From contig OZ024740.1 of the NCBI GenBank assembly GCA_964016885.1, forward strand, positions 173,166,001 through 173,230,000: a DNA stretch of 64,000 nucleotides, read 5' to 3'. Positions 4,851 through 62,976 of this stretch are shown here, one piece after another. The notes below the pieces were generated by a model that ran no database searches, was not told where the DNA came from, and saw only the letters and a list, made by a program, of their open reading frames with translations. The translations under genes and the position numbers were made by a program. Source of the stretch: Eledone cirrhosa (lineage: Eukaryota). Each line of letters begins with the position of its first letter. Position 1 is the stretch's first letter.

Positions 4851-6980
4851 GGAAAGAAAACCACACTATCTAGTATGTGATACATCCATGGACCATAGGT
4901 TGTACTTTATCCATTATATTTTGTATTCAATTCTGGTTTTAAATGTGCACATATTTATAAAAGGAATGCATAATGTGTAACTACTGTAATTGGTTTTACT
5001 GTCTATATGTATATGTAAATATTTGTATAGACCTTTTGAATCTATGAATATCCTCTGTGTGTGTATGTATAGGATGCATTGTTAGCTGCTTTCTTAAACT
5101 CTCAACAAAATACCATCAGTTATCTATGGTAATTAGGAAAAGTGCATCATAACAAACCATCACCCATCCCAGGCTCCTAGTTGAGACCCAGTATGATCTA
5201 TGTGAATTTTCAGATACCTCAGGAAATAATAATAATAATAATAATGATTTCTTTATTAGCCACACAGAGCTTAAATTAATAGGATGATAAAGATGGTACA
5301 ATGGGAGGGGGTCTGAAAGAAAGGTTTATAACAAAAACTAAAAAAATAAACATTTAAAAAACAAAACAACAAAATGCCCCAAAAGTGTGGTTACCTCTGA
5401 GGGTTACAAAAAAAAAACACCACAGTTATCTTGATAACTAGGGCAGGTGCTCTTTCAGCTGTTCTCCAATTTACAGGCACATACTCAGTAATAATAATAT
5501 ATTTTGTCAACTAGTACAGCACATGTATTGAGAAAAGCACTATCACTGATAAAGATAATCATCTATGTAATTTGTTTATTTAACTTTATTAGATTATACT
5601 CCATGATTATGTAAGTTGTAAATAATATAATTGAATACCATTCTGTTGTAAATAGGATTCTAAACAGATAATGTGCACATGTATAAAGCAAATGATATAC
5701 TTGTAACTGTGTAAAGTGCATGACGTGAACAATCTGATGTGTTTATTGTGAAGTTTATCAATGTATGTAATGAGTTTCTCTGCCCTGGGTATCAGGAAGA
5801 CACTCAGTAAGAAATGGAAATGAAACTGAAGGAAGAGGAAAAACACAAAAATAATAATAATAATAATTTCTTTGGCTGATTCATTAAAGGATAGGACCAA
5901 ATGCCTTACCATATTTTCTTTATCTCTCTATGCTCTAAACTGCAATACTGCTGAGGTCAACTTTACCTTTCATCCTTCCAGTCCAGTGTGATGTGATGGT
6001 GAATTGTAAGAGCTCAGACAAAATGCTTCAAAGAATTTGTTCTAGCTCTTTGAAGTCTGGATACTGAAGTGGTAGACCTAATCTGTCACCTAAACACCAG
6101 CACTTCGTTGTTGCTTACCTTTAGTGGAGTTCATTCTGTTGCAAGCATTTAGATTAAGTAAGTTTCCACTTAGAAGATATCTTCCCACTTCCTCCCACAC
6201 ATCTCAGAGGCCCTAATTAAACAGTAAAAAAAAATAGTGATACTGTTACTTGAAGGAATGTGAGATGAAGTTAAAACATCATGTGGGATTTGCACTAGTG
6301 CATTTCTATTTCTACCATTCCATAATTACTTTACATTTAAGACAATGGATTGGCTGAATCATTAGAACATTAGAATGTTTTGCAGTATTTCTTTCAACTC
6401 ATTACATTCTGACTTCACAGGTGTTAAGCAGTATCACCTGTTGCCTTTCCCTTGGACAATGTTGGTGGTATGAAGGAAAGAGACTTGCTGCCTAAGCAAT
6501 ATTGGTTTCCTATAGGAGAATAAACTTGCCCAAACCTGCACCATGGAGAGGATTTTACCAGGTACAGATACATGGTCAACTCTAATGTAGGCCTTGAAAT
6601 ACTTTACATTACAATAGAGCTTCAGGCATATACTGAAGGTGATATGATATTTCAACCAGGTGTAGTGAAATGGCTAAATCAGAAGTCAAAAGTTGATCCC
6701 AAACTCAATTCACCATGGACTTAGTCTCTATATGTTCACATGTATGCACATGTTACCTACACACATAAAGATGAAAAGTAGCAAGGATCTTGGATATTTT
6801 GAAATCTGAATGTTGTCAAACAAAATTATATATGGCAAAGCATTTTCTCTATCACTCTATTATTTTTACTAACTCGACACACTAATGTATCAAATATGAT
6901 ATAAGCCAACAAGGGAGGCCTTATGTGGTTACTCAACTTACTAGAAAAGCAGTCACATCTTTAAATCAAACCCTCTAGTC

Positions 6981-7287
6981 TAGGGGTGTGTAACATATTC
7001 CATTGGCAGGCCACTTTTGAACATTGGATCAACTATTAGGGCCATTAATATTTATTAAGTACTATTCCAAAGATTCACCACAACTTCTTTCTATAACATG
7101 GAACTGGGAAATAACCCTATCAGGGAAGCCCTTTTGTATAGATCAACTAACAGAAAATTGTATTACAGTTACAGAAAAATTTCTAAATAAGCCTACAAGG
7201 TAAAAATTAAAAACGGTCATCACGGGCCACTCTGACTGGTCTGGTGGGCCAGATTGTGGCCCGTGAGCTACCTGTTGCATGCCCCTG
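6981..7287. mobile_element. hAT-Charlie-type MITE
   Basis: Imperfect TIRs TAGGGGTGTGTAAC / GTTGCATGCCCCTG, subterminal GGGCC motifs, perfect 8-bp TSD CTCTAGTC (6973-6980, 7288-7295). Confidence 0.88.
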
Positions 7288-7874
7288 CTCTAGTCTTTCA
7301 TTTTAAAAACAGAGTAAGGATTTCATGCATATTATAGTTTGAAATAAACTATGAAAAGATGTGATGGTTGTCGTTGGAATATCTTTAATCAAATTTCTGC
7401 TTGAGCAGATCTGCTGTGGGGTTAACAACAACAAAAATCAAATATTATATAATGTATTATGCACAATATTAACAAATATAGTTAAGACGTTCACTCTACA
7501 ATCATGAGGTCCCAGTTTTGATCCCACTGCATAGCATCTTTGACAAGAGAGTATTTTACCATAGCCTCAGACTGAGTGAAACTGGGTAGATAGAAGCTCG
7601 CTGGAGAGATTGTGTCTGTAATTTATAGATCCAGCTTTGCCACATTGTGTTACTCTAATTCTACCTGAGAATTATGTTAAATGTACCCATATCTGTAGAA
7701 TGCTCAGTCACATGTTAATTTAAAGAATAGAATGTTAGCTTTGCCTTTCATCCTTATGGGTTCGATGAAATAAAGCACCAGTAATGCAATAGGGTCGATT
7801 TAATTGACTTTCCCCTCTGCTAAAATTGTTGGCTTTGTGACTCAATCTGAAACCATTATATTTAATTGGTAGGT

Positions 7875-8225
7875 CTGGAGGAAGGAGCAGTGCTTATGGA
7901 TTTCAGAGGCCCTAAATAACCTGAAAGCTTCACTTTAAACTGTTGTAGATCCATTTCTTTTAAGAAAGACATGGGCTGGAAGAGAGTTCCAGAAGGCTGA
8001 TGTTCTGGACAGAAAGAACTGGATACATTAATTAGTGTGAGGCTTGGGATGGACACAACATGGATGATGAAGAGGAAAGATGAGTGAATTAGAGGTGCAT
8101 GAGACAATTGTAGTAATGAAAGAAGCAGAGAGATGAGACAAAATGTCTGTATCTTGAGGCTGGAGAGTGTCAATGAATGACTTAAAACTGATTAGCCAAG
8201 TGGCTTTTTTCACCATCAAAACCAA
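7875..8225 (-). mobile_element. Decayed CR1/L2-type LINE 3' fragment
   Basis: Minus strand reads ...TCTTTCTGTCCAGAACATCAGCCTTCTGGAACTCTCTTCCA...DLQQFK, i.e. a frameshifted SF.PRT..LWNSLP...FK end. Confidence 0.55.
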
Positions 8226-10645: not shown

Positions 10646-35159
<24,514 letters not shown>

Positions 35160-44380: not shown

Positions 44381-44780
44381 TTGTTACTGTAAATAATATC
44401 ACGTTTATACAATTTTACAAAATGTACTTGGTGCATTTATCATATAGATCACCAACACTCAGGAGGTTGTCATGTCTTTGATGCAACTGAAAAGTCCTGA
44501 TCTTTTGTTGGCAAGCTTTCTACCAGAAGATGGTCTTCCTACCACCAACCACTTTACAAAGTATGCAGGGTTCTTATATATGTGCACAAGCATGTACATA
44601 CATACACACATATACATTACCCTACACATAACTCCAGTACTATATGTTTTTGAATATTTTTCATATCATTTATCAGGTTATGTGCAATATGATACATTTG
44701 TGTGTGTGTGTGGTGTGTATGTGTACATATGTATGTATACATATATATAATTATGTATATTTATATATGTATGTGTGTGT

Positions 44781-45080
44781 GTTGAACAAAGAAAACAAAA
44801 AGTAAAGTTTAGTGCTTAATCAGTTCATTGTTTTACGATCGTTTCAGAAGGTTGATTAACCATGATAAACCGATAGTACTTGTGCAACTCCATATTGTTA
44901 GTCTTCATACAATAGATCCCTCTCACCATCTTCAGTAGAAACATTGTTTCCAATCTATTGTATTGAGATTAATAATATGGAGTTGCTAATATCGATTTTT
45001 CACGGTCAATCAACCTTCTGAAACGATCGTAAAATTAACTAATTAAGCACAAAACTTCACCTTTTGATTTCATTGTTCAA
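44781..45080. repeat. Imperfect inverted repeat (about 135-bp arms) between (TG)n and (CA)n, with decayed HHR on the minus strand
   Basis: TTTTACGATCGTTTCAGAAGGTTGATT mirrored by AATCAACCTTCTGAAACGATCGTAAAA; GCAACTCCATATT mirrored by AATATGGAGTTGC. Confidence 0.88.
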
Positions 45081-45081
45081 C

Positions 45082-45171
<90 letters not shown>

Positions 45172-45202
45172 CGGACGTAAAATGATTTTATATATATATA
45201 TA

Positions 45203-46659
45203 CTAGCAGTGGTACCCGGCGTTGCACGGGATAAGGTTTTTTTGGAACGCGAGCTGCCAACAGACCTAATCGTGGAAAAACTGCATGCGTGGACAATATG
45301 TAAAGAAAATAAACCGAATACTTTGATGGCTGGATAATCTTTAAGATTTTCTTCGATGAAGCAGGAAAAGTGCAGGTGTTCACCTAATGAGGGCCCTAGG
45401 AGATCAAGAAAATGAATTTTTTTATGTGCATAATATGCCTTGAAATCTCGGGAAAATCGGCTAGACGTAACGCCTCAAAAAAGCCCTAAAAAGCTGAAAA
45501 ATGAACTTTTTCACCTAATGCGGGCCCTAGACCATAAAAAAGTTGAATTTTCATTGCCCACGATATGAAGAAGAGACTGACTAATACATAGTTACAATTT
45601 CAAGGAAATAAGTCTGACGTAATGACTCAAAAAACCCCCTAAAAACCTGAAAGAAACGAAGTTTTTCAACTAATGCGGACCCTAGGGGATCAAAAAGTTG
45701 AATTTTATGTGCATAACATTCCCTGAAACATAAGTAATACATATGTAAAGTTTGAAAAAAGTCGGTTGGATACTTCTCAAGTTTTAGGGATTCAAACTCA
45801 CAGGCACACACACACAGACAGACATCCTCAGGGAAGTGACGTAATGCAGACATCAGACATACAGACAGATATTATAAGGGCGCGACATTATATGTATGTA
45901 TCTATCTAAAAAGAGAAAGACTAAGAATTATAGAGAGAGATCGCTAAATCGCCTAATGCGGTCCCTATGGCATCGAAAATTTGAAATGTTTTTTGCTCAG
46001 AACACTCCCTGAAACATAAGTATTACATGTGTAAAGTTTGAAAACAGTAGGTTGGGTGGTTCTCGAGTTTTAGGGATTCAAACTCACACACACACAGACA
46101 TCCTCAGTTTTATATATACAGACTAGCAGAAAACCACCCGGTGGGCGGTTTTCTGCTAGCAAATCTAGTGTATATACTGATATTGTTGAGATTTGGATGA
46201 GAAATGTTTTCGGCACCACATGTTCACCGTCTCTCGGTGTGTCTTTTATGCATGTATAAATATATATGTTATCTATACGGTGAAATCTTTGAAATAAATA
46301 TATGTTAAAACGAAAAAGGAGAAAAAGAGATTAGTGACGGAAATATAAACGTTATGATACATAAACGTTATGATATAACGATGGAAATATATCTTCAAAT
46401 GGTCCTTGACATGGTGTCAAGTCAGAACCGCCTCGAACTGGTTACTTCTGGCTTGTGCAAGGTGTCTCTATAGCAACCAGCGATTCCCTCGGCCTCAGTG
46501 ACCAAAGTCAGTGGAAAGAGGAAGGTAATGTTTCTATAGCGACAGTGTTTCTCTTGGTAGTACCAAAGTGGAGAAAGGAAGGGGAAGGTAATATTTCTGT
46601 AGCACCTACATTTGAGTTTTAGGGAAGGACAGACAGACAAACAGAGAAATGCCCATATA

Positions 46660-46752
<93 letters not shown>

Positions 46753-47499
46753 CACACACAGAAATGTATATATATTTCTGTGTGTATATATATATATATT
46801 ACACACACAGAAATGTATATATATTTCTGTGTGTATATATATATATTTCTGTGTGTGTGTATATATATATATATTACACACACAGAAATGTATATATATT
46901 TCTTAGAACAAAATTAATGTTTTGCTGTTCATAACAATTGGAATTGAAAAATTACTTTTGAAATTATTAGTTATTTTACTAATGCTTAGATATGTAAAAA
47001 TGAAGCAATGTTTCTAATAATTGTTTCTACTTTTGGCACAAGGCCAGCAATTAACCAGTACATTACTGGTACTTTATTTTATCGACCCCGTGAGGATGAA
47101 AGGCAAAGTTAACCTCGGCGGTATTTGAACTCAGACCGTAAAGGGACGTAACTCCATGCTATGAAGCATGGTGTCCGACTCTCTACAGATTCTGCCAATC
47201 CACCGCCCTAATGTCTGTACGTAATGAGGGAGTGAGAGGGGAGAGAAAGAAAGGCAGAGGTGAAGTGACGAAGTGACTCTCTCCTCCTTCTCCTCCTCCA
47301 TCTCCCCATTCGTCACAGCGATAGAGGGGAGGAATATTAGTGTGTTACAAAGAGAAAGAGTGAGAGTGAGAGAAACAGACAGACTAAAAGAGAGGGATAG
47401 CTGGAGAGAGGGAGAGAGAGAGATAGCAACCACGCGCGGACGTGTTTCCACTGTCGGACAGACAGACAGAGAAATTGCTGGTTATATATTATAAGGAGA
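45203..47499 (-). mobile_element. Composite/tandem non-autonomous Helitrons
   Basis: Minus strand: A|TCTCCTTATAATA start at 47499; CTAG|TC junction at 46123/46122; 3' hairpin CCCGTGCAACGCCGGG then CTAG|T at 45203; (GTCT)n near the 5' ends; four about 150-bp subrepeats (CCTAATGCGG.CCCTAG). Confidence 0.7.
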
Positions 47500-47658
47500 T
47501 ATGTGGACGTAAAATGATGATGTCATATATGTAACATACATATGACTCGATAGTTCGTTTGAATGTTCGACGAAATCTAATATGATAATAGCCTATTACA
47601 AAAACCTCTGATCATCTGATCTCGTTGGAATTTTTACATTCGTGTTCGACGGGTAGAT

Positions 47659-47722
<64 letters not shown>

Positions 47723-48558
47723 GTCTGTGAATGTGCATGACTTAGTGGTTAGAACATTGGACTTGCAATCATGAGGTTGTGATTTAGATTCTCGGACCAG
47801 GTGGTACGTTATGTCCTTGAGCAAGATATTTTATTTCACATTGATGCAGTTTACTCAGTTGTAGAAATGAGTTGCGACGTCACAGTTGCCAAGCTGTATC
47901 GGTCATTGCCTTTCTCTTGGACGAGACGACACGATAATTATTTAAGTGAATTTATAATATAGAATTCGGTTTAAGTGCATTTCGTATTAATCATTACTAA
48001 ACATCTAATCTGAGATATTGAATATTAGCTTAAATAATTATCATGTCGTCTTGAGTTCGTTATGAGTCTCTTTTTTATAAAAGGATGCCACAGAGTGTAC
48101 GATAGATAATGATTACAATATTTTTGAGCAACAACTCTAGTCCCACACTTTTGAAGGTTTATTATAACATTCTGTGGCTCTTTTGAGCTTGCGCATTTTT
48201 CAGGTCTAGTATATTATGACTGGGTGTATAACCGTTGTTCCCTAATATTCACATAGGTAGTTGAGTCGATCGTGTATGGTACTGACAATTTTTTCAACGA
48301 TACCACGTTCTTCAAATACGTCGGTAAATTAAATAATACAACGCTGGCCAATCACGTCGTTTAGAAGCTAAACTATTTAAATGTAGAACATGACATCAAA
48401 TGGGAATTTTTAGAAAGAAACGAGTCTTATACTAGCAGGATCAAGAAATGTTGGGGTTTTTTTTATTCAGTAGACAAAATACATATATTGATAAAATTGA
48501 AAAATTCTGCTCACTATTTAAACATTAGGACTCATATCTTCAATATATGTCCACACTT

Positions 48559-48663
<105 letters not shown>

Positions 48664-48711
48664 AAGATGAATAATAAATGAAAGTGCTTTTATAAAGGAA
48701 TTTATTAGGTA

Positions 48712-50364
48712 CTAGCAGTAAAGCCCGGCGTTGCTCGGGGTCGCTCAGTAGCTGTGTTAAAGTTACAATGTTAAGTTTCTTTTTTGGCTTAAAAACTGTA
48801 GTGTCTACTGTGCAGACTTGCATGTGGTGTTTTTGATTAATATTCCCTCAACCAACAATATGCCTTATGAAGTTAAGAAAACATAACGATAACCCGAATG
48901 TTATAACAAAAGAGGAAATATTTGCTTGTTTTACGTAGTCTTTAAATAGACTTGTTTTCAAGTAAAAATATTGTTTTAAAAGGCTTTTAAATGGAAATGA
49001 AGCAAAACGGAAGCTTAGTGTTCGAACTGATGAATTTTGCAGGTCAAAATTTTGCTGGCTCGACAACTGTTCGTGTATTGTGTTAATGTCATTTTAAACG
49101 CTGAGAAAGCCAGCGTAATTTTTTTTATTTTTGCACGCAGAAAATGTAAACAGAACGTAAGACGCTCAATGTAAACAGAACAAAGGGAAATAACTCGTCA
49201 CTTACGCTCAAAAATCGATACATTAGATTCGATTTCGTCACATAGGGTGGGTCAATTTGAAATATTTTTTTCCGATGTCTTCGCTAGGGCTCAATGTACA
49301 AGTATAGCAATTTCGGTGCAATTCCGTCAGAGATTCTAAGAGGAGATGTGTGCCAAAACTTGATAGACAGACAGACAACCACAGCTTTATATATATAGAT
49401 AAGAACAAAGGGAAATAACTCGTCACTTACACTCAAAAATCGATACATTAGATTCGATTTCGTCACATAGGGTGGGTCAATTTGAAATATTTTTTTTCCG
49501 ATGTCTTCGCTAGGGCTCAATATACAAGTATAGCAATTTCGGTGCAATTCCGTCAGAGATTCTAAGAGGAGATGTGTGCCAAAAATCGATAGACAGACAG
49601 ACAACCACAGCTTTATATATATAGAGGACATAATCAAAAACAAGAACTTATTTGAAAATTTATTTGACCGATGGTTCTGCCGGACCTTCATCTATAAGTG
49701 TAGCAATTTCACCGAAATTTGAACGTACGGTTTAAGAGGAGATGTGTGCCGAAGGTTTTAGTAGACAGACAGACAACCTCAGTTTTATATATATAGATAA
49801 GAACAAAGGGAAATAACTCGTCACTTACGCTCAAAAATCGATACATTAGATTCGATTTCGTCACATAGGGTGGGTCAATTTGAAATATTTTTTTTCCGAT
49901 GTCTTCGCTAGGGCTCAATGTACAAGTATAGCAATTTCGGTGCAATTCCGTCAGAGATTCTAAGAGGAGATGTGTGCCAAAAATCGATAGACAGACAGAC
50001 AACCACAGCTTTATATATATAGATGACATAATTAAAAACAAGAACTTATTTGAAAATTTATTTGACCGATGGTTCCGCCGGACCTTCATCTATAAGTGTA
50101 GCAATTTCACCGAAATTTGAACGTACGGTTTAGGAGATGTGAGCCGAAGGTTTTAGTAGACAGACAGACAACCTCAGTTTTATATATATAGATGACATAA
50201 TCAAAAACAAGAACTTATTTGAAAATTTATTTGACCGATGGTTCCACCGGACCTTCATCTATAAGTGTAGCAATTTCACCGAAATTTGAACGTACGGTTT
50301 AAGAGGAGATGTGAGCCGAAGGTTTTAGTAGACAGACAGACAACCTCAGTTTTATATATATAGA
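48712..50364 (-). mobile_element. Non-autonomous Helitron with six tandem 5' termini
   Basis: A|TCTATATATATAAAACTGAGG start, CCCGAGCAACGCCGGG hairpin plus CTAG|T end, no TSD; internal about 220-bp and 170-bp units in order A A B A B B. Confidence 0.88.
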
Positions 50365-50400
50365 TTGACATATGTTTCTGTAAATTCAGAATTTATCCAA

Positions 50401-50518
50401 TATCTCTGAAGAAGTGACAACTGATTATACATTTGCTATCGAATACTTGCTAACATTATATGATTACGCAAGCAGCGATACATAGGTATTCCGTCTGTTA
50501 CAGAAACATATGTCAATA
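50401..50518 (+). ncRNA. Type I hammerhead ribozyme-like motif (long stem II, weak stem I)
   Basis: CTGAAGA 50406-50412; GTGACA/TGTTAC stem II; GAAA-CATAT-GTC with palindromic stem III ACATATGT. Confidence 0.55.
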
Positions 50519-51159
50519 CCTAATAAATTCCTTTATAAAAGCACTTTCATTTTATATTCATCTTTTCTACATTTTCTCCGGAATATAATTTATACTCGTT
50601 GAGCAAACCTACACGTACGCTGTTCATCTCTAACGTGACGAAATATTATCACTACATTATTGATAACTTGAAATTTTTATATATATATATATATCGACCT
50701 TCAGACTGACACTGCTTTGACTGATACACTCCCTTCCCTGTATATATCACTCGCATGTATGTGGTTGCGCGTGTGTGTGTGTTTATACGCGTGCTTTCAT
50801 ACTTGTGTGTGTATATATTTCAATCCTTAATACCTGAGTCTGGATGTACGTTAACTCTATTATCTTACAATTTCTTTTTCAACATATATTATCTACGTAT
50901 TTGTGGTCACACATACACTGATATGATTGCCCTCATATATGTACTTACACACACATTTTTTCACTATACACATGCATTTGTACATACATACATATGTACA
51001 TATGTGAGTGAATATACACACATTTATACACATACCCTAACTATATTTCCTTATTTTATTTTTATATATCTCTTGCATTACTTTTACTTATATATTTCTT
51101 TTGCCCGTTAAACTTTTGCCTTTCTTGAGGAGATTGTTCAAATATTTCACTATGTTTTA

Positions 51160-51237
51160 AATTGCCTTGTCCGACGAACGAGTGAGGACGTTTCTTGTAT
51201 TCGTCTTATTCGGGAAACCTCTGGTAATGAGGTAATT
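51160..51237 (+). ncRNA. Type I hammerhead ribozyme motif with U4C core change
   Basis: Stem I AATTGCCTTGT/ATGAGGTAATT; CCGACGA; stem II CGAGTGAGGACG/CGTCTTATTCG; GAAA-CC-TCT-G-GTA. Confidence 0.65.
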
Positions 51238-51336
51238 ATATTGTATTGTTTATTATACATTAAATTTAGCTCTGGTACTTACTTAGAGCATTCTTCACTC
51301 CTATGACTTTTTCAATTTTCAACGGAAACTTCAATG

Positions 51337-51441
<105 letters not shown>

Positions 51442-51903
51442 CTACCTACACGAGGCTAGTCCATAGCCTAATGAACACTTGGTATCTTTCATACGCACCT
51501 GTAACGCTTTTCGTGACTGGACGGGTTTTCTCAAAACTTTGCTTATTGACAATCACATTTACATAATCTGACATAGACAAATTCTCATAAATTAGTTATT
51601 TTGTTACTTCACGCTATCTAGATAGACTTTCAGAAAATTCTAATAAGAATCATATAGACACACACATCGTTCACATACATTTATGATTTATAATTATATA
51701 GTTTATGAATTAACACTGATGCATCATAATACATTGGTCTTTAACAAAAAATTATTATTCACATAAATTAAAGACATAATACAAAAATTATAAAGTGAGT
51801 TATGCATTTGCATCATATACACGTGATATTACCTTCACTCACACGAGAACCACTATATTCAATTATATCTGAAGATTGGATTTCCACGTGTTTAAACTAC
51901 CTG

Positions 51904-51945
<42 letters not shown>

Positions 51946-51974
51946 GTTTAACGCTTGGTATAGTAGGAAAAGTA

Positions 51975-52008
51975 CCTCCGCGTTTCGGACGTTAGCCCTT
52001 CATCAAAA
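51975..52008 (-). ncRNA. Decayed hammerhead remnant
   Basis: Minus strand TTGATGA-A-GGGC-TAAC-GTCC-GAAACGCG; C3 mutated, cleavage triplet and stem I lost. Confidence 0.45.
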
Positions 52009-52989
52009 ATGTCAACTCTCCTCGTCAGATGGGGAAATCTCTTTGGGGTGGGTGAGAGATGTCTTCTCTTGTGAAAATGGGTATAGCTTTCATTATGTAA
52101 AATCTCCCCATTTTACCTCATTTCTCCCCGTTTTGGGGCACATTTTTTCATGGTACTCCCCGTTTGAGTTTTTAGAGGCTGGAAGGTCTGCTTCATAGAA
52201 GATAGAAGCAAGTAACGGAAATATATATATACAGAGAGTAGAAGAAAGATCGAATTTGATTCTTGTATGAATGAAAAAAAATGAATACCTGTTTCGTAGT
52301 TTCTGATATAGGCTGGTGTTTACCTTTATATATTTGCATACCGCCGAGAAATAACATGTTTAAGTTTTAAGTTGAATACTCCACATTGTATATTGTAGTT
52401 GTATCATTACCACGCTAATTATGTTTATCTCCTATCTGCAGTCCTTTTTAAATATAAATGATATTATCATCTGCCATGATCAACGTTGCCTTTTATCCTT
52501 CCGGAATCGATGAAATAAAGTACAAGTCAAGTACTGGGGTTGATTTAATCCAATGTGCTCCCCCCCCCCCCACACACACACACACAAAAATAAATCTGCT
52601 GGTTTTATACCTGGATTAGAAATGAATATTGTATAGAATGGTTTAATATATGCGATATTATTGTTTTGTAAACAAGACACTAGAAACGTATGACTAGTTG
52701 CAAAAAATAAATAAAATAAAATAAAATATAATAAAATATAATAAAAAATAAATAAAGACGTATATGTGCGGAAAATAAACCAACTTCATGTTGTCCAAGT
52801 TTTTTTTTTTATTTTATTTTTATGCAATCTTTCTTTTATGTATTGTATGTTTCTCACTGGTGGTGATTACCAGTTGATGTATATCTTTAACAACGAAAAT
52901 TCTAGCAATTTACTCTATTTCTTGAACATCATCTTCTTCGCTCACTTATTCCTGAGAGGGTCGTGGGGTGGGGGGTGATGAAGAGTCCT

Positions 52990-53178
52990 CAAACACTCCT
53001 TCTAGCAGGTCCATCTCCAAGCGTGACCAGCCAAGCTCATGGATGTTATCCAACCATCTAGCTCAGAGTCTATCCCTGGGTCTCCTGCCGATTCGTTTTG
53101 TACGTAAAATCTGTCCAGCGATTCTTTCCTGAGTCATTTTAACCATATGCCCATAGTATCGGAGCTGTGATCTTCAAC
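52990..53178 (-). mobile_element. RTE-clade LINE 3' fragment
   Basis: Minus strand RSQLRYYGHMVKMTQERIAGQIL...GRRPR....RWLDNI. Confidence 0.7.
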
Positions 53179-54751
53179 ATGTGCATGGAAAAGAAACATT
53201 CTTCCTCTCTTTTAATTTTTTTAATAAAATATAACTAGAACTTTGCTTTATAAAATAAATCGCACAGCCTACTTCGGTTATACTATATTAATATCAAGGC
53301 ATGGATTAATGGGAGTTGTTACATTCAGAACTTTACGAGAGTATTAGTGGCGTACGAGAAACAGCTGCAATCGAGAAAGAGACCTAGATCACCTGTAGCC
53401 CATCTCTCATAATCCTGTCGATCCTATAGTTTTCTTAGTTTCCATTCCGTGCATATCGGTCTGTTTTTTTGACAGTTTTAATAGCATATCAGTTTTTCTA
53501 TGAGAAGGGATAGCTAACCCCTCACTCAACCTTTCTCAATTTCTGGGGAAAGGATCACCGTGTCTGTACGACCCTTCTCACGGTGTAACGTAACAGATTC
53601 GAAGAGAGAGAGAATTGACTTTAGTACTTTATTTATTGAGGATGAAAGTTAATCTCAGTGGGATTTAAATTCAGAACGCAGACCACAAGACATTCTACCA
53701 TATGTTCCAACGCCAGTCCTCCGCCGTCTGTTTTATACTAATGCATCATCATTTTAAAACCAATATTTCATCTGTACTTCCTTTTTTTAAAACAGTAGTG
53801 TGCGATTTGAAGGAAATGCGACTGCTATTTCTATTAGGTCGTGTATCACGTTGAATTTCTTCCGTCGGTTTCGACAATGAGTGTTCTAATTGTTCGATTA
53901 ACAGAACAGTCTCCTCGAGAAATTAACGTACAAGAAGCTAAACATTTCATAGACAGTATACCCTTAACGTAATTCTCAGAGATAGTTAGCGTGACACAGT
54001 GTGCGACAAGGCTCCCCTTTGAATAACAGTTACAGTCCACCCGATGGGTTTCTAAACACCTTCCATCAACCCAATTTCACTCATAAGACTTGGGATTTTT
54101 TTTTTTTTTTTTTTACTTTAATTGAATCTATTTTTATTTTTTCCGTTCTTCGATAAATCAAAATCATTCTCTCTTATATACACCTATATACACCAGGTCC
54201 GAACACTAAAGCGCCAAACTCTCACTGTCTTTCCCGCTCTCCCCATCTCTTACTATTGTGAGCAAATTTAGACCCACGCGCTAGTCGCTCCATGACCCCG
54301 GGCGATAGAATAGCGTAGCGAGGGTTATGATAAATTACATTTGTCCTACATTTATGCAAGTAATGCCTTTATGAAAGGCAGGAACATCTCACATACTCAT
54401 TCCCGTTTATTATGAAACAATTATGAAATAATTGTTTCTACTTTTGGCACAAGGCCAGCAATTATCCAGTGTATTACTGGTACTTTATTTTATCGACCCC
54501 GTAAGGATGAAAGGCAAAGTTAACCTCGGCGGGATTTGAACTCAGAATGGCAAGAGTCGTAACTCTATGCGCCAAAGCATGGCGTCAGACCCTCTACCGA
54601 TACTGCCAATTCACCGCCCAAACAATTATGAAATAATTGTTTCTACTTTAGGCACAAGGCCAGCAATTACCCAGTGCATTACTGGTACTTTATGAAATAA
54701 TATATTCAATTAAGCAATCAAGTAAAAGTAGGTTTGTTCACACACATACGC

Positions 54752-54866
<115 letters not shown>

Positions 54867-55052
54867 TCCACGTGTAGTGAAGGAGATTTCTTGTTTAGGT
54901 GCCAAATTCTGGTAAGATAATATTTGTTGAAATTTTGAGTAAATCTTTTGAAATATTGACTCCAAAATTAGTCAAAGGAATTGAATCACTGGAGGCGGCA
55001 GCACAATAACAGCAGCAGGAGCAGCAGCAAGAAGAAGAAGAAGAAGAAGAAG

Positions 55053-55083
<31 letters not shown>

Positions 55084-55745
55084 CAAATAGCGGCAAGCAA
55101 GGATATCGCAATAAGTTTAAGATAAAAATCAACAGAGAAAGCAATTCACCTGAGAAATTTTGAAGCGTGGGATCAAGTTGGGGTGAGTTGTATCAAAGGA
55201 TTTGAATCTACTATCTTATAGTGTTGAATGATGATGATGATGATGATGACGATGTGGTAGGTAGTGGTATTACTGGTGTTGGCGGTAGCAGCAGCAGTGG
55301 TGATAATCATTGTTTTGAACTTTGATAGAATAAACCCTAGTCAAATTTATTTAAAATTGCTATATTATTGTTATAATTACCACTTAATCAAAGACAGGGC
55401 ATGGGCAGCGACCTGACCGTACATTTTTCTCAGAGGCTTCGAGATTAGTGGAAGGAAAGGGAGGAAACTATCTTCGGATCAAAGACATAGTCGGAATTCT
55501 TGCAACAGAATGAATTTCTCATGAAGCAAACGAGGACCTAGCGATGGTCTCTCTCTCTCTCTCTCGCTCCCTCCCTCTCTCTGAGACAACGGGGCATAAT
55601 AACAATATGCTGGTACGATCGTCTCTGGGTGAAAAACATAAACGCACTTTTTTCTTCTCTGTTTTATTTTTCTCTGCTTTTTTCCTTAAAGCCTCTTGAA
55701 ATGTGTTTACCATCATTCCTTTGGTATACATCTATTATGCAATTT

Positions 55746-55803
55746 ACACCTGAAGATGTCACCGTGTTCTTACGCAACCTGGCCACTGAAATATGCATAG
55801 TGT
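55746..55803 (+). ncRNA. Type I hammerhead ribozyme-like motif
   Basis: ACAC-CTGAAGA-(imperfect stem II)-GAAA-TATGC-ATA-GTGT; palindromic stem III TATGCATA; AATAAA just downstream. Confidence 0.6.
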
Positions 55804-56083
55804 TTGTAGAAATAAATAATTAAGGAAATTCAACCTATTGAGCCTCCTGTCATTTTACTTTATCTATATATATATGTGTATATATATGTGTGTGTGTATA
55901 CATGAGTGCGTGAGTCTGTGTGTATGCACACATGTAGCCATAAATACTCACACAAACACACGCATCTACTGTCACACAAAGCAAAACTTAATGGTTCAAC
56001 AAATATACATCGATGAAATAAGTACTGCTTCATATTCGATACAGTCCAATGAGTGAAACCAGTAATAGAATTATTTACATTAC

Positions 56084-56173
<90 letters not shown>

Positions 56174-57172
56174 CACACACACACACACACACATGCATAC
56201 ACATATATATATATATTTATACATATACTTACGGTAAATGGGGTTGCGTATGCAACTCACCAATCAGTAAATAATTGTTTCTACATTTGGCACAAGGCCA
56301 ACAATTACCCAGCACATGATGCAATTTGATTCAAGCACTCAATGTCATGTCTTTTTTTTTAATTCCAAAGTTGTTTGCATATAGTATATGTTTGTCTTGA
56401 CACAAACCTACCCCCAACAAAATGTACCAAGACTAAACTAACCAAAAATACGCCTCACAAAATACAATTTCACAGTTAGATAAAAACAATATCAGAAAAA
56501 CCGTTAGTGCAAGAGATCCTTCAACGGGTATCTTAATCCACACAGTGTCAGAGACATGACACAATATATATTTTTTCTTATACAAACCTCCCCACCATCT
56601 AAATACAACAACCCTAAACAAGTCAAAAGCACACCACACAAAATACAATTACCTATAAAATTAAAATTAAAATATATCCACTATACATGTACTGGGAGAA
56701 CGAATTTCATCAGACTACAATTACCTTCATATCTAACATTTGTCGAGTTGTGATTGTGAATTGTGGTTACAATTTGCTTACAAACCAAACATTTAAGAGT
56801 TCAAGGCATTTAATTACTGGCAATTCTTTCTTCCCACGGTGATATACCACAGATAGCAAATCATTTTATTTAACGATTTGCCATTAGTGAACATAGACTG
56901 TGGGTGTCATCAGAGTTTAATAAAAATACTAATACAAGTCACTGGGGGAAAACGAACAGATAATATATACATATATCACTCATCAAAGTATCAAGATAAA
57001 AAAATTACAATTACAAATATAGTTAAAAAAAAACATCGTAGTCAAAAAAATATAGTGTCAGTTGTGTTAAAGGTTGTGTTTTCTAGAATGAATTGGAATT
57101 TATATTATTTTAAATTTGCGCTCTGGGCAGACTGCTGGTAGTTTGTATAGTTTTATATATAATATATATATA

Positions 57173-57552
57173 TATCAAAATGAAAATCCGAAGGCAAAGT
57201 AAAATTCAAATCATTTAATCACGACACATGTTTCAATAAGAGATAGATCGATTGTGAAACCATGATCGATTATCACTGATCTCATCAGGTGAAAATGAAA
57301 TGTCTTCAAATTCTTGATATGAGGGAGAAAAATAACGATGTTCTCTCACAGAATTCATTCCCTCATATGAATTCTGTGAGAGAACATCGTTATTTTTCTC
57401 CCTCATATCAAAAATTTGAAGACATTTCATTTTCACCTGATGAGATCAGTGATAATCGATCATGGCTTCACAATCGATCTATCTCTTATTGAAACATGTG
57501 TCGTGATTAAATGATTGGAATTTTACCTTGCTTTCGGATTTTCATTTTGATA
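57173..57552. repeat. Near-perfect palindrome, 186-bp arms, 8-nt spacer
   Basis: Arms 57173-57358 and 57367-57552; 5 mismatches counted by eye; explains the mirrored ORFs 57233-57436(-) and 57289-57492(+). Confidence 0.97.
57434..57505 (+). ncRNA. Type I hammerhead ribozyme motif (mirror copy 57220-57291 on minus strand)
   Basis: CAC-CTGATGA-(extended stem II GATCAGTGATAATCGAT / ATCGATCTATCTCTTATT)-GAAA-C-ATGT-GTC-GTG; predicted cleavage after 57502. Confidence 0.72.
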
Positions 57553-57736
57553 CTTCTACTCCGTTTTACATCATCTAGCTGTTCCCTTGAATGGAATTGG
57601 AGATATACAAAAGCGTGGAGAACTTAATATTGCTAACATAAAGTTATTGGACCATTTTACACATTTAATATATATATAAGTTGAAAAAAATGAAAACGAA
57701 ATTTCATTTCTCACTCTTAGTATGGCACTTACTTAA

Positions 57737-57793
57737 ATGTAAGTATGTATGTATACGTACATACATATATGTATACAGACGTACAGTAGCATG

Positions 57794-57859
<66 letters not shown>

Positions 57860-58340
57860 CATACAGGTACACATACATATATGCACGCATCAGTTTAGCG
57901 GACGCTTATTATAACGCCGCTTTGTTCGTTTGTAAACAAACTGAACAGCCTGAATTTATGCCATACGGTGTTAAGGCAACCACGTCACCTTTTTGTTCAA
58001 CACTGACACAGGAACGATGTACTAGTTACAAGCTTGTTAGCTATCATCAGCACCGTATACCCATCTGCCAGATAGTTGAACGTTAATTTTCATAAGGAAA
58101 GTATATACTTTCAGACGTTCAACCATCTGGCAGGAAGGTATACGATGCTGACGATAGCTAATAAGCTTGAAACTAGTACATCGTTCCTGTGTCAGTGTTG
58201 AACAAAAAGGTGACGTGGTTGCCTTAACACCGTATGGCATAAATTCAGGCTGTTCGGTTTGTTTACAAACGAACAAAGCGGCGTTATAATAAGCGTCCGC
58301 TAAACTGATGCGTGCATATATGTATGTGTACCTGTATGTA

Positions 58341-58392
<52 letters not shown>

Positions 58393-58444
58393 CATGCTAC
58401 TGTACGTCTGTATACATATATGTATGTACGTATACATACATACT

Positions 58445-58449
<5 letters not shown>
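57737..58449. repeat. Near-perfect inverted repeat, about 340-bp arms including (TA)n, 31-nt spacer
   Basis: Arms 57737-58083 and 58115-58449; spacer holds its own palindrome GAAAGTATATACTTTC. Confidence 0.96.
58143..58183 (+). ncRNA. Minimal type I hammerhead ribozyme motif (mirror copy 58015-58055 on minus strand has GAAA>GTAA)
   Basis: CGATG-CTGACGA-TAGCTAATAAGCTT-GAAA-CTA-GTA-CATCG; palindromic stem III ACTAGT; predicted cleavage after 58178. Confidence 0.75.
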
Positions 58450-58501
<52 letters not shown>

Positions 58502-60859
58502 TATATATATATGTAAGTATGCACACGTACACACATACACATATACATATGTACGTATGGGTTATATCGAACATTAATAATAATGTTCGATTCGTTTGTA
58601 AACAAACGACCCGATTTGAAGTTGTGCCATGTCGGTGTGTACGTGTGCATACTTATATTTATGTATCAGCTGTGCCAGGACGAGAAATAAAATTTTAATT
58701 TTATTATTAATATTCGGCAAGGCCAGCCGTAACTCGCTCGTTATGAAGAGATAGAGCGCGGGATGAGTACAAACATACCAAAGCTATTTGATAAGTATAC
58801 GTGTGTATGTGTTTAAATGTTTCCTTTCTTTCTTTTTTTTTTTTGTTGGTGTCACAAATAATTGTTTCTACGTTAGGCACAAGGCCAGCAATTACCCAAT
58901 GCATTACTGGTACTTTATGTTATCGACCCCGTAAGGATGAAAGGCAAAGTCAACCTCGGCGGGATTTGAACTCAGATCGTAAAGGGACGTAACTATGCTG
59001 GAAAGCATGGCGTCCGACCCTCTACTGATACTGCCAATCTGGTGTGACAAATAATTGTTTCTACTTTAGGCACAAGGCCAGCAATTACCCAGTGCATTAC
59101 TGGTACTTTATTTTATCGACCCCGTAAGGATGAAAGGCAAAGTCAACCTCGGCGGGATTTGAACTCAGATCGTAAAGGGACGTAACTATACTGGAAAGCA
59201 TGGCGTCCGATCCTCTACCGATCCTGCCAATCCACCAACTGGTGTGACAAATAATAATCAATAAATTGATATATGATCCAGTAAGGTTTTCTTATTTATG
59301 CTATTGAGAAATACAATATCTGTGTAATTGTGTCAATAAATATTTGTTCCAAATATAAACGTTGCTACTAAAATTTCAACAGCTGTACACTTAAATCCTA
59401 CAATAACATTTCAGGAACAAGTCATTCAACCTGCTAGAAATAACAACCAAATCCCTCTCAAATCACACCCTACTATCTTATATATATATGGGGTCGGGAA
59501 CACGCAGCTTCGATGCTGCATGTAACTCTATTGCTGACCTTCCAACCTCTAAAAACCCGAATGGGGAGCACCATGAAAAAAAGTGCCTTAAAACGGGGAG
59601 ATTTTACGTAATGAAATCTATACCCATTTTCACAAGAGAATATATCTTTCACCCACCCCAAATTGGGTGGGAGATCTCCCCGTTCGACAGGGAGAGTTGA
59701 CCTATCTTGATATGACTCTTGAACGTGCTGAAATTTACTGTTTTTATTTATTTGTATTAAAATAAAAGCCACGACTTAAAACTTGGATATTGAAGCCAAA
59801 TATTACATTGAGTAAAAAGAAAAACGATAGCTAAATTCACGTTGTCGTATATTATTTTGTTTATAATAAATTATACGGCTCCGATAATCCCAATTTTTCT
59901 TTTTTTTTATAAGGTAAAAATGGCTCTTGAGATAGAAAAATGTTCCCACTTCCTGTTATGTAAGAACAGGACACACTAATTAATGTAGTCCTATATATTT
60001 TTTATAAGATGGCCTCTGCTCGAATGCCGACTCGATTAGTGTTGAATTATGAATAAACAACAACTTTTCGAGGGAGCCTCTTTATGGTTGCTTGTCCTCC
60101 TAGAAATAGAGACCAAATCCACCCTTCAACCTCAAATAATACGCTATCAGCTTAAGACTTGAAGAACACATTGTTACGACTGGAATGCCTTTGATTGCAG
60201 TTTTGCGCAGTCATGTTGTAAACAACAGTATAGTTTCAGCTAGACGGATATGATTCATTTGAGAGGTGTTTCCTTACATAGCTTTTACGTTCAACTCCTA
60301 TCTGGTAATATAGTTTAGAGGTCGATGAGATCCGTCGATCAAAATTCATCTAAATATACTATATGAAGAAGACCTTATGAGTAACTCTACGGCTCAATAG
60401 GCAATGGATCTTAATGCTATAAGTACCATGGCCAACAATTGTTGAAGCTAGTTGGGTTAGTAGCTAAGCATTCTACTCAGTGTTACATACAATAGCTAAG
60501 TAGGAGAATTCACACCCGACTGTACACAACTTGTAGGGTTTTAGTATACAACCAAAGTGAACAACCAAACAATTAGCCAAATATCCGTGTCCCACCACTG
60601 GCATTGTTCTGTGTTCAAGGTCAAGCATCTATCAACGCACAGGCGTTAATAGAAATGTATTATGAACAGTAGGTTAGGAACATTGCTGTACACAATGGGA
60701 ATACTGTTTTATTAACGAGTTATTTCATTGATCGGGGGCGGTGGAATAGGGGACAGGGGGTAGACATGCCCCCCCCCCCCCATTCAATAATTATATTTTT
60801 ATCCCCAAACTACCAAAACATATCAATTTGTATATGCGTTACAATTTATGTACATGTTA

Positions 60860-61985
60860 TATAGAGATAGATGGAAGAGATAGATATAGATATAGAAAGA
60901 GGGAGGGTTTGGTGGTAATTAATATAGAGAGCAAGGTTGGGAGAGAGTGTTGCATATTAGATATTTTTTGTTGTTAATTGATATGTTGTTAATTGATGTG
61001 GAAGAGAGTTCCGTGTAGTAGATATAGAGAGGGGGATTGGAAAAGAGTTCCGTGTAGTAGATATAGCGAGAGGGAGAGTTTGGTGATAATTGATATGGAG
61101 AGGGGAATTGGAAGAGAGTTCCGTGTAGTAGATATAGAGAGGGGGAGAGTTTGGTGTTAATGAATAGAGTGAGAGGATAGATAGAGATAGATATTGAATG
61201 ATATAGAAAGGGGAGTAGTTTGGTAGGAGAGGGAATGAAAGAGAGTGTTGTATGGTAGATATAGAGAGGGGGATAGTTTGGTGATAATTGATATAGAGAG
61301 AGGGGGTTGGGAGAGAGTTCCGTGTAGTAGATATAGAGAGGGGGAGAGTTTGGTGTTAATTGATATAGAAGAGTATTGGAAGAGAGTTCTTTGTAGTAGA
61401 TAGAGAGAGGGGGAGTTTGGTGCTAATGGATATAGAGAGGGGGGTTGTAAGAGTGTTCCGTGTAGTAGATATAGAGAGGGGGAGAATTTAGTGTTAATTT
61501 ATATAGAGAAGGGGTTTGGGAGAGAGTATTGCATGGTTGATGTAGAGAGAGGGAGAATTTGGTGGTAGGATTGATAGAGATAGGTACTGTTAGATATAGA
61601 GAGGGGGAGAGTTTGGTGGTAATTGATATAGAGAGGGGGATTGGGAGAGAGAGTGTCGTGAGGTAGATATAGATAGAGAGGGGTAGATCTCAATGTTTGT
61701 AGATATAATTAAAGGGTTGGGAGAGATAAATATTGCTAAATATATAGAGGAGGACTGGGTGAGGCGTTGTCGTATAAGATATAGAGGGGGTACTTTGTGA
61801 TGGATAGAGAGAGAAATATTACGACAGAGTGTGATAGAGATGGTGATGGGGAAAGTTTGGAGATGATTAATATAAAGAGGGAGATTGGGAGTGTGATTGG
61901 TATGTTAGATATAGAGAGGGGCAGAGTTCAGGGGTGATTGATATAGAGAAGGGGAGAGTTTGGTTGTAGTAGATACATAGAGATG
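60860..61985. repeat. Purine-rich minisatellite, alternating about 35-40-bp subunits
   Basis: Repeating GGAAGAGAGTTCCGTGTAGTAGATATAGAGAGGGGGAGAGTTTGGTG.TAATTGATATAGAG. Confidence 0.9.
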
Positions 61986-62182
61986 AGGAGTCCCAAAAGT
62001 CAATACCGAAGTAGAGTTTGAATATTCATTTATTATGGCTAAGTGATGAGCCTTGTTACTCTGGAGTCTCACCTGGATACTGGATACATCAGACAAGACT
62101 GGTGTTCCTGTGAGTGCGCAGGTGAAACTTTAGAGTAACAAATCTCACGAATAGCCATAAGAAATGAATATATATAAATATA

Positions 62183-62976
62183 AAATATAAATATTTACAC
62201 ATACACCAATTAAACAGTTACAGGTATATATGTGTTTTTTGCAACTTTTCACGTTGCGGCTCAATTATCAAATAATTCTCTGGACATGCTTTACTCTAGT
62301 ATTCCGCTCTGATTAATTTATTAATTCTCCATTGATCCACAACGTGAAAAGTTTCAAAAACACATAAATACCTGTAACTGTTTAATTGGTGTAAATATTT
62401 ATATTTAATAATCTCCCATAAGGTTGAGATAAAAATCTGGGCGATATTGGGCTGCGCTTTCTAGCAACCAACCCAATCGCCGTAAGCAACCAATCACACC
62501 CTTCCTGACTTGACCACTGCCACGTCACAGTTCTCAACCATTTTGAATTCGTGTTTGGCGGGGGTCACTTCGGAAAATAATATATCTAGCGAGTTTACCC
62601 CCTGAAGAGCTCTAAACTCGAGTATGAACCTTAAATAAGGTATCTCAAAAGAGAGCGAAACCCATGGGTCGGGATTTAGTGATTTAATCCTGGTATGTAT
62701 ATAAGCATTTCTAACATTAATTTTTACCTAATTATGTATGGTTGACCGTGTATTTAATTAATTTCCACATGCTGTCGAAACGTTGGGTAGATGCTCTATA
62801 GCAGTTGCACGCGAAGACGCCGCGATGGTGTATCTATTTACTGTTTCTTCATAGATGCCTTTAATTCTTATAGCCTGGTCTAATTGATTTTTTGTGTAGT
62901 TAATTGTGCTGATTAGGAGTAGAGATGATGTATATATATTATCAAATAATTCTCTGGACATGCTTTACTCTAGTAT
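62183..62976 (+). mobile_element. Non-coding Penelope-like/retrozyme element: 5' inverted segment plus 674-bp monomer with 39-bp terminal redundancy and a central HHR
   Basis: Inverted arms 62183-62265 / 62331-62406; direct repeat ATTATCAAATAATTCTCTGGACATGCTTTACTCTAGTAT at 62264-62302 and 62938-62976; TA-rich flanks. Confidence 0.7.
62599..62673 (+). ncRNA. Canonical type I hammerhead ribozyme
   Basis: CCC-CTGAAGA-GCTCT...AGAGC-GAAA-CCCATGG-GTC-GGG; all core nucleotides intact; predicted cleavage after C62670. Confidence 0.9.

What the first reader, a model, noticed from the sequence alone, without database searches (positions are those of the whole stretch)
57173..57552. 380-bp hairpin with an HHR on each strand and a template-switch scar in the loop
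Seen: 186-bp arms, about 97% identical, so a transcript from either strand holds one sense HHR and its antisense. The spacer plus adjacent bases (TCCCTCATAT) duplicate a 10-mer inside the right arm (CTCCCTCATATC, about 57398). Inference: the palindrome arose by fold-back or template switching during reverse transcription. Full hairpin folding would sequester the ribozyme and create long dsRNA, a possible ADAR/Dicer substrate in a lineage known for heavy A-to-I editing.
Basis: partly seen in the sequence, partly recalled or inferred. Interest (0 to 1): 0.7.

Follow-up and report, generated by a model that had tools for sequence, protein, structure and literature searches.

The report
Head-to-head hammerhead retroelement stump, octopod
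This 380-base hairpin in an octopus-like genome is two short, mirror-facing pieces of a highly repeated element that carry a hammerhead ribozyme motif, likely the leftover ends of a Penelope-like jumping gene joined during insertion, an arrangement already known from other animals.

Summary
The palindrome is real: 186-bp arms with 5 mismatches, an 8-nt loop, and a complete type I hammerhead (HHR) core on each strand. It is the core of a larger insertion (57173-57665), since the right copy runs 111 nt past the arm and an identical TA-rich 13-mer flanks both ends. Public reads show a highly repeated family with other head-to-head joints at other positions. The 10-mer match is non-random, but family depth carries the loop on from the left arm, mostly without the return arm. 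The loop is therefore probably native family sequence, not a jump scar, and the join sits on a 5-nt microhomology. Head-to-head inverted ends, unequal 3' ends, a dimer-type HHR and a TA target are published features of Penelope-like elements (PLEs). No RT-GIY-YIG gene was found, so membership rests on architecture. Best mechanism (inferred): both target strands primed reverse transcription and the two cDNAs annealed. Read-through RNA would bury the HHR, but there is no evidence of transcription, cleavage or editing. A second HHR palindrome starts 180 bp away, and this scan noted similar PLE palindromes in shark and fungal DNA. Ordinary for PLEs.

The parts
57160..57172 (.). Left copy of a candidate 13-bp target-site duplication, TA-rich
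   Evidence: Identical to 57666-57678 and abuts the left arm. Low complexity: the 13-mer occurs 8 times in the window on both strands.
57173..57371 (-). Left copy of the element (sense on -): longer at its 5' end (includes the loop), ends 50 nt past the predicted cleavage site
   Evidence: An X1 contig aligns 57246-57371 and an X9 joint (2 reads) leaves the window sequence at 57371.
57211..57301 (-). Type I hammerhead motif of the left copy (core from 57288, predicted cleavage after 57223)
   Evidence: Descriptor scans; constrained fold -16.9 against free fold -19.2 kcal/mol.
57354..57371 (+). Junction: 5-nt microhomology TTCAT / ATGAA around the 8-nt loop 57359-57366
   Evidence: Sequence; DNA hairpin only -1.3 kcal/mol; family depth runs from the left arm into the loop.
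57367..57665 (+). Right copy of the element (sense on +): 5'-truncated 70 nt before the HHR core, ends about 161 nt past the predicted cleavage site
   Evidence: Family depth 45,000-62,000 over 57560-57649 in X1; an X5 contig aligns 57436-57642 with 3 other letters; 13 X1 contigs leave the window sequence at 57663.
57399..57408 (+). 10-mer matching loop plus 2 nt; its mirror 57317-57326 pairs with 57359-57368 as a native hairpin of the left copy
57424..57514 (+). Type I hammerhead motif of the right copy: helix I 4 bp plus extension, 47-nt helix II closed by G-U, 2-bp helix III with self-complementary ACAUGUGU, predicted cleavage after C57502
   Evidence: Among the 40 of 194 variant rows shown, the only core position that varies is N7 (57441); loop II varies; 57472 A>G restores a helix II pair.
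57553..57665 (+). 3' extension present only on the right copy (tail-like, 111-113 nt)
   Evidence: Family depth and loose ends. A 42-aa stop-free frame here found only unrelated repeat proteins.
57666..57678 (.). Right copy of the candidate 13-bp target-site duplication
   Evidence: 2 nt from the end of the family match.
57734..58452 (.). Neighbouring palindrome of a different family with the same head-to-head HHR layout (intact core at 58148 on +, mutated core on -, 31-nt spacer holding a 16-bp palindrome)
   Evidence: no blastn similarity to the first palindrome.

Best explanation
The hairpin is two short copies of one highly repeated hammerhead-bearing element lying head to head in a TA-rich site, likely the terminal repeat (pLTR) of a Penelope-like retrotransposon, and likely made in one insertion event in which both cut target strands primed reverse transcription. 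Shown: arms, HHR cores, unequal ends, flanking 13-mer, family abundance, other joints in the family. Inferred: the element's endonuclease cut both strands of the TA-rich target. Each 3' end primed cDNA at a different internal site of the element RNA (equivalent to 57552 and about 57665). Both cDNAs stopped 70-83 nt upstream of the HHR core, annealed through the 5-nt TTCAT/ATGAA overlap and were filled in, leaving 8 nt of native sequence as the loop. The copy is now inert and has about 1.3% divergence per arm. RNA that crosses both arms is predicted to zip into dsRNA and bury the ribozyme, which is of the dimer-dependent type and predicted to fold poorly alone.
For: Unequal ends in opposite senses: the loop belongs to the left copy and the 111-nt extension to the right copy, so neither arm can be a simple DNA copy of the other. 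One X1 contig and one X9 joint both leave the window sequence at 57371, the end of the 5-nt overlap. Other antisense-to-sense joints exist in the family: 57311>57460, 57365>57426 and a 57303-57422 piece with 20 gap letters (1 X1 contig each), and 57371>57557 (2 X9 reads). Both arms share a letter rare in the family (57425 T: family A in 14,950 of 15,587 X1 depth; mirror 57300 A: family T in 77,206 of 77,257), which points to one source. Candidate 13-bp duplication. PMC11167929 (parts 1-2 of 4): a PLE protein cleaves and extends both target strands, prefers AT-rich DNA and starts at two internal RNA sites downstream of the HHR. PMC3846280 and PMC8557442: head-to-head inverted 5'-truncated copies with a tail on one side. 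PMC4209133: PLE HHRs with long helix II, short helix I, palindromic helix III, and pairs 100-700 bp apart on opposite strands.
Against: No RT or GIY-YIG gene: 0 of 50 ORFs from 44-64 kb matched either, and the 42-aa frame gave 4 unrelated hits. The extension is 111 nt, not the usual 30-40 nt tail. Helix II opens with G-U rather than the conserved G10.1-C11.1, and Rfam misses the motif. The loop-is-native inference rests on binned, summed contig depth, 1 contig and 2 reads; hairpin fragments may be under-sequenced, and only 40 of 194 variant rows and 22 of 254 loose-end rows were shown. The locus itself was not bridged: X1 depth is 0 at 57110-57169, and organism A may be another species. The 13-mer is low complexity. 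Self-priming on an antisense RNA fits the same asymmetry.
Confidence: 0.5

Rival explanations
1. Same element, but the mirror image came from self-priming: an antisense RNA or free cDNA ending at 57371 folded back on the 5-bp hairpin, was extended into the right copy, and only part of the template arm was integrated.
For: The 5-bp stem with an 8-nt loop sits exactly at the centre. It is the model proposed in PMC3846280 (Discussion read). It also explains the rare letter shared by both arms and allows a longer right copy.
Against: The hairpin is weak (-1.3 kcal/mol as DNA). Three other family joints leave about 45-190 nt of unpaired native sequence between the arms (read off), which is less natural for tight fold-back. 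A first strand primed on the left target and folding back cannot yield a longer right arm.
Confidence: 0.25
2. One reading: one cDNA primed from the right end stopped at 57367, slipped back about 40 nt to recopy 8 nt, then folded back and copied itself for 186 nt. The loop is a templated scar.
For: The 10-mer match is non-random (27 of 20,000). The copy arm being shorter than the template arm fits. One template explains the shared rare letter.
Against: Family depth has the loop without the return arm (bound of about 5,000-8,000 against 291 at 57392). Two runs show the loop plus 5 nt followed by non-arm letters. The fold-back step would have no microhomology. An older scar fixed in the family's source copy is not excluded.
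Confidence: 0.13
3. A non-PLE repeat: a palindromic MITE, or a non-LTR retrozyme monomer inverted later by DNA repair.
For: TA-rich flank; no coding partner found; canonical type I HHRs occur in 150-450 bp retrozyme repeats of molluscs (PMC7229834, passages).
Against: Family sequence runs past the right arm and joints differ among copies, unlike fixed terminal inverted repeats. No tandem array here. A preprint argues that animal retrozymes derive from PLE pLTRs anyway (10.64898/2026.07.22.740005, part 1 of 5).
Confidence: 0.09
4. Fold-back assembly chimera.
For: No read or contig bridged this locus with its left flank.
Against: Five arm mismatches, with the family letter on the left arm at one site (57193/57532) and on the right arm at another (57259/57466). 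The inversion stops at 186 bp with different flanks. A candidate duplication brackets the unit. Older, more diverged palindromes lie in the same window.
Confidence: 0.03

Closest known systems
Inverted pLTR insertions of endonuclease-bearing Penelope-like elements (Adineta vaga Pen2/Pen2a, PMC3846280; general scheme in PMC8557442 Fig. 2 legend)
   Same: Head-to-head inverted 5'-truncated copies of about 200 bp, unequal 3' ends, short palindrome at the junction, target duplication, AT-rich target.
   Different: No ORF between or beside the repeats; one-sided extension of 111 nt instead of 30-40; candidate duplication of 13 bp instead of 8-10.
Minimal and palindromic-helix-III hammerheads of metazoan PLEs (PMC4209133)
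   Same: Type I topology, complete core, short helix I, long helix II, tiny self-complementary helix III suited to dimers; pairs on opposite strands a few hundred bases apart were already reported in Schistosoma.
   Different: Helix II is much longer (47 nt), opens with G-U instead of G-C, and has no unpaired base after A9.
Poseidon of Anolis carolinensis (PMC11167929)
   Same: Copy ends lie at internal points downstream of the HHR; insertion in AT-rich DNA.
   Different: No protein or ORF start identified here; the two ends are 111 nt apart.
Non-LTR retrozymes of animals (PMC7229834; preprint 10.64898/2026.07.22.740005)
   Same: Short non-coding repeat with a type I HHR and 2-bp helix III, high copy number.
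   Different: Inverted pair rather than head-to-tail tandem; no circular RNA evidence.
Palindromic Harbinger repeat of Xenopus as a hyper-editing substrate (PMC5625713)
   Same: Self-contained near-perfect hairpin of a few hundred bases that would be an ADAR substrate if transcribed.
   Different: Retroelement-derived, and neither transcription nor editing is shown here.

Membership tests
Type I hammerhead ribozyme | Conserved core CUGANGA, GAAA, UH | tested here: met
   All core letters present on both strands.
Type I hammerhead ribozyme | Three helices around the core | tested here: inconclusive
   Helices can be drawn (constrained -15.0 and -16.9 kcal/mol) but are 2-3 kcal/mol above the free folds; z about 0; helix I probability 0.002-0.11 in one-arm RNAs. 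Family variation falls on N7 and loop II in the rows shown.
Type I hammerhead ribozyme | G10.1-C11.1 closing pair of helix II | tested here: not met
   G-U at 57444/57490 in both copies; no variant there among the 40 of 194 rows shown.
Type I hammerhead ribozyme | Rfam hammerhead model score | tested here: not met
   The second and third HHR motifs of the window are missed too, so the test looks insensitive for this type.
Type I hammerhead ribozyme | Self-cleavage | not testable with these tools
   Needs an in vitro assay, probably as a dimer.
Penelope-like element | RT plus GIY-YIG ORF bounded by the repeat | tested here: inconclusive
   None near this copy (0 of 50 ORFs from 44-64 kb). Long family copies could not be searched because no genome is held.
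Penelope-like element | HHR with small palindromic helix III inside the terminal repeat | tested here: met
   ACAUGUGU self-duplex -6.0 kcal/mol; a 2-nt shorter variant in 14 of 690 X9 reads.
Penelope-like element | Inverted 5'-truncated copy adjacent at the 5' end (head to head), variable among copies | tested here: met
   (4 further joint forms, each in 1 contig or 2 reads).
Penelope-like element | One-sided 3' tail of 30-40 bp | tested here: inconclusive
   A one-sided extension is present but 111-113 nt long.
Penelope-like element | AT-rich or microsatellite target with duplication | tested here: inconclusive
   Target is TA-rich; 13-mer on both sides but low complexity, and no empty site seen.
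Non-LTR retrozyme | Head-to-tail tandem repeats each with an HHR | tested here: not met
   No tandem array at this locus; other loci not tested.
MITE | Fixed terminal inverted repeats shared by family copies | tested here: not met
   Family runs past the right arm and joints vary.

The most novel reading that the evidence does not exclude
Opposite asymmetry at the loop and at the tail records two-ended target-primed reverse transcription in vivo, and octopod PLE families mass-produce short perfect hairpins this way. Such hairpins could be a main source of the unusually abundant long dsRNA behind octopus hyper-editing, while silencing their own ribozyme in read-through RNA.
Probability: 0.2. 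Interest if true: 0.55.

Novelty: new member of a known kind. Interest (0 to 1): 0.22.

Why it matters
As a single locus it matters little: it is an inert repeat stump of a described architecture. Its use is as a test case. Junction and end polarity across thousands of copies can separate two-ended priming from antisense self-priming, which the PLE papers read here leave open. A census of these hairpins against octopod editing maps would show whether PLE insertions feed ADAR substrates.

Tried and rejected
Whole-genome copy search: no genome held. Rfam: nothing relevant; miRNA hits are generic hairpin or TA-repeat matches below threshold. Run search: no RNA holder listed; this says nothing about expression. 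Apparent common ends in the RAD-seq run X9: rejected, since 5 of the 6 shown (of 9) fall on AATT sites and the sixth lies beside a family variant that creates one, so they are likely library cuts. Run X6 (20 contigs, mostly under 90% alike) was not used. Summed contig depth was not converted into a copy number. Two of 8 X1 pieces shown stop at 57552, hinting at a recurrent end, but clipping at the variant letters 57554-57556 could explain it. ORF remnant: 50 of 150 complex ORFs of 65 aa or more (those from 44 kb on) plus 6 others were scanned against Pfam; the only RT belongs to an AP-endonuclease LINE at 18-21 kb. The 42-aa frame at 57551 hit 4 cadherin or TPR repeat proteins, taken as chance. 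The five arm mismatches are mixed and show no A-to-G pattern. Scan notes by sequence and by place: none. One search fetched an unrelated paper and was not used.

Full report
Observation. The inverted repeat is as described: arms 57173-57358 and 57367-57552, 5 mismatches of 186, loop of 8 nt. It folds as one hairpin at -298 kcal/mol, beyond all 100 shuffles. Each arm holds a complete type I hammerhead core, on + from 57437 with the predicted cut after C57502 and on - from 57288. Both motifs point away from the centre, so the copies are head to head. A relaxed descriptor, tuned after I saw the motifs, finds 4 sites in the window against a mean of 0.2 in 40 shuffles. Rfam finds none of them. The loop-plus-2 10-mer recurs at 57399; 27 of 20,000 shuffles do as well.

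Setting. An ANKS3-like gene on + has its coding exons at 10646-35156. Its best relatives are from Octopus bimaculoides (78%) and Argonauta (70%), so the genome is likely an octopod. The palindrome lies 22 kb beyond the last coding exon. None of the 50 ORFs scanned from 44-64 kb reached a Pfam cut-off (50 of 150 complex ORFs). No whole genome is held, so family evidence comes from one read-laying run on 56900-57790 with four coded runs, which shows only part of its rows (40 of 194 variants, 22 of 254 loose ends, 24 of 1,994 pieces).

Extent. The sequence is highly repeated in organism A: summed depth is 10,000-87,000 over most of the arms in X1, against 6-17 for the single contigs listed. This is not a copy number. 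Depth stays at 45,000-62,000 over 57560-57649, an X5 contig aligns 57436-57642 with 3 differences, and 13 X1 contigs part from the window at 57663. The right copy is thus about 111 nt longer than the arm. An identical 13-mer lies at 57160-57172 and 57666-57678; it is TA-rich and occurs 8 times in the window, so it is a candidate duplication only. The unit is about 57173-57665.

The loop. X1 depth is 20,791 at 57353 and 17,558 at 57356, averages 10,330 over 57350-57379, and falls to 291 at 57392. One X1 contig aligns 57246-57371, and 2 X9 reads leave the window at 57371 and resume in sense sequence near 57557 after 30 other letters. The loop and the next 5 nt therefore look like the family's own continuation of the left copy. 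The join itself falls on a 5-nt overlap, TTCAT/ATGAA. Against this reading: the depth is binned and summed, hairpin fragments may be under-sequenced, and the direct support is 1 contig and 2 reads. I put 'native' at about 75%. The native hairpin could itself be an older scar in the source copy.

Family behaviour. Other antisense-to-sense joints occur at 57311>57460, 57365>57426, within a 57303-57422 piece with 20 gap letters, and at 57371>57557, so the mirror image is rebuilt at different points. Both arms share a letter rare in the family (57425 and its mirror 57300), which points to one source. The right arm departs from the family at 57532 and the left at 57259 (a site that is polymorphic in the family), consistent with later mutation in both arms. 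Divergence is 1.3% per arm (0.4-3.1%), or roughly 4 (1-9) million years on the scale used for O. vulgaris in PMC13282606 (passages; calculation); conversion between arms would make this an underestimate. The sharp ends in X9 coincide with AATT sites and were set aside. The locus itself was not bridged: X1 has no depth at 57110-57169.

The ribozyme. Helix III has 2 bp and a self-complementary 8-mer (duplex -6.0 kcal/mol), the dimer type. Helix II is 47 nt and opens with G-U, which is atypical. In the variant rows shown, the core varies only at N7, loop II varies at four positions, and a common change at 57472 restores a helix II pair (344 of 678 X9 reads). The fold is 2-3 kcal/mol above the free minimum. 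Helix I forms with probability 0.00 in RNA crossing both arms and 0.002-0.11 in one-arm RNA. In either direction the antisense copy is transcribed first, so read-through RNA would bury the motif. Cleavage is untested; related PLE motifs cleave poorly alone (PMC4209133, parts 1-2 of 4) or need the element's protein (PMC11167929, parts 1-2 of 4).

Mechanism (inferred). The left copy has extra 5' sequence and the right copy extra 3' sequence. A first strand primed on the target and folding back cannot give this, because the arm that carries the native loop would be the template and could not be the shorter at its 3' end while still abutting the duplication. Two models remain. In the one I favour (0.5), both target strands primed cDNA at different internal sites, as a purified PLE protein does in vitro (PMC11167929), and the cDNA ends annealed over 5 nt. 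In the other (0.25), an antisense RNA or free cDNA self-primed on the weak 5-bp hairpin, as proposed in PMC3846280 (passages and Discussion).

Comparison. Head-to-head inverted 5'-truncated copies, one-sided tails and microsatellite targets are standard for PLEs (PMC3846280; PMC8557442, passages), and HHR pairs 100-700 bp apart on opposite strands were reported in PMC4209133. Penelope elements are annotated in O. vulgaris (PMC13282606, passages). The defining RT-GIY-YIG ORF was not found, so this works like a PLE end and is likely one, but membership is not proven. Retrozymes (PMC7229834, passages; preprint 10.64898/2026.07.22.740005, part 1 of 5) are tandem, and MITEs have fixed ends; neither fits. 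The window holds a second HHR palindrome of another family at 57734-58452 and a further HHR at 62602, so the layout is not rare here. Six paper searches listed no paper on octopod hammerhead palindromes by title or abstract start; the library lacks most subscription papers, one listed paper (PMC10886601) was not opened, and no supplements were read, where PLE consensus sequences for this family might stand. Earlier notes of this scan describe like palindromes in shark and fungal DNA; they are unchecked AI notes, seen after I had formed my reading.

dsRNA. Octopus has strong hyper-editing and many loci able to form long dsRNA, and a palindromic repeat is a major substrate in Xenopus (PMC5625713, passages).

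Verdict. Real, correctly measured, and best read as a small head-to-head insertion of a Penelope-type hammerhead repeat. New member of a known kind; interest 0.22.

Noticed in passing
window 57734-58452: Second HHR palindrome (about 350-bp arms including TA runs, 91-96% alike, 31-nt spacer with a perfect 16-bp palindrome). The right HHR at 58148 is intact with a U-U mismatch at the base of helix II; the left one has a core change. A 72% alike partial copy lies at 58528-58638.
   Followed up: partly
window 62602-62675: Third type I HHR motif on + with a 10-nt palindromic helix III and long helix II, about 190 bp downstream of a decayed inverted repeat at 62179-62410.
   Followed up: partly
window 44718-45153: Older palindrome (arms about 83% alike, 73% over the whole) between microsatellites, with a GAAA-palindrome-GTA half of an HHR-like core; the first half of the core is not recognisable.
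   Followed up: no
window 10646-35156: ANKS3-like gene on + (ankyrin repeats and SAM domain), about 11 coding exons by tblastn of an octopus homologue.
   Followed up: yes
window 18093-20761: Near-complete LINE remnant (AP endonuclease plus RT, in three frames or pieces) inside an intron of the ANKS3-like gene.
   Followed up: partly
window 57680-57739: End of a separate, very abundant repeat abutting the right flank (summed depth over 500,000 in X1, also present in X5 and X6).
   Followed up: no
window 58847-59232: Two tandem 193-bp units of a dispersed repeat with several copies elsewhere in the window; resembles octopus SINEs (recalled, not tested).
   Followed up: no
window 60999-61700: Strongly G/A-skewed degenerate tandem repeat (period about 69-71 bp).
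   Followed up: no
window 49177-50372: Nested tandem duplications (periods 226, 398 and 169 bp, 96-97% alike).
   Followed up: no
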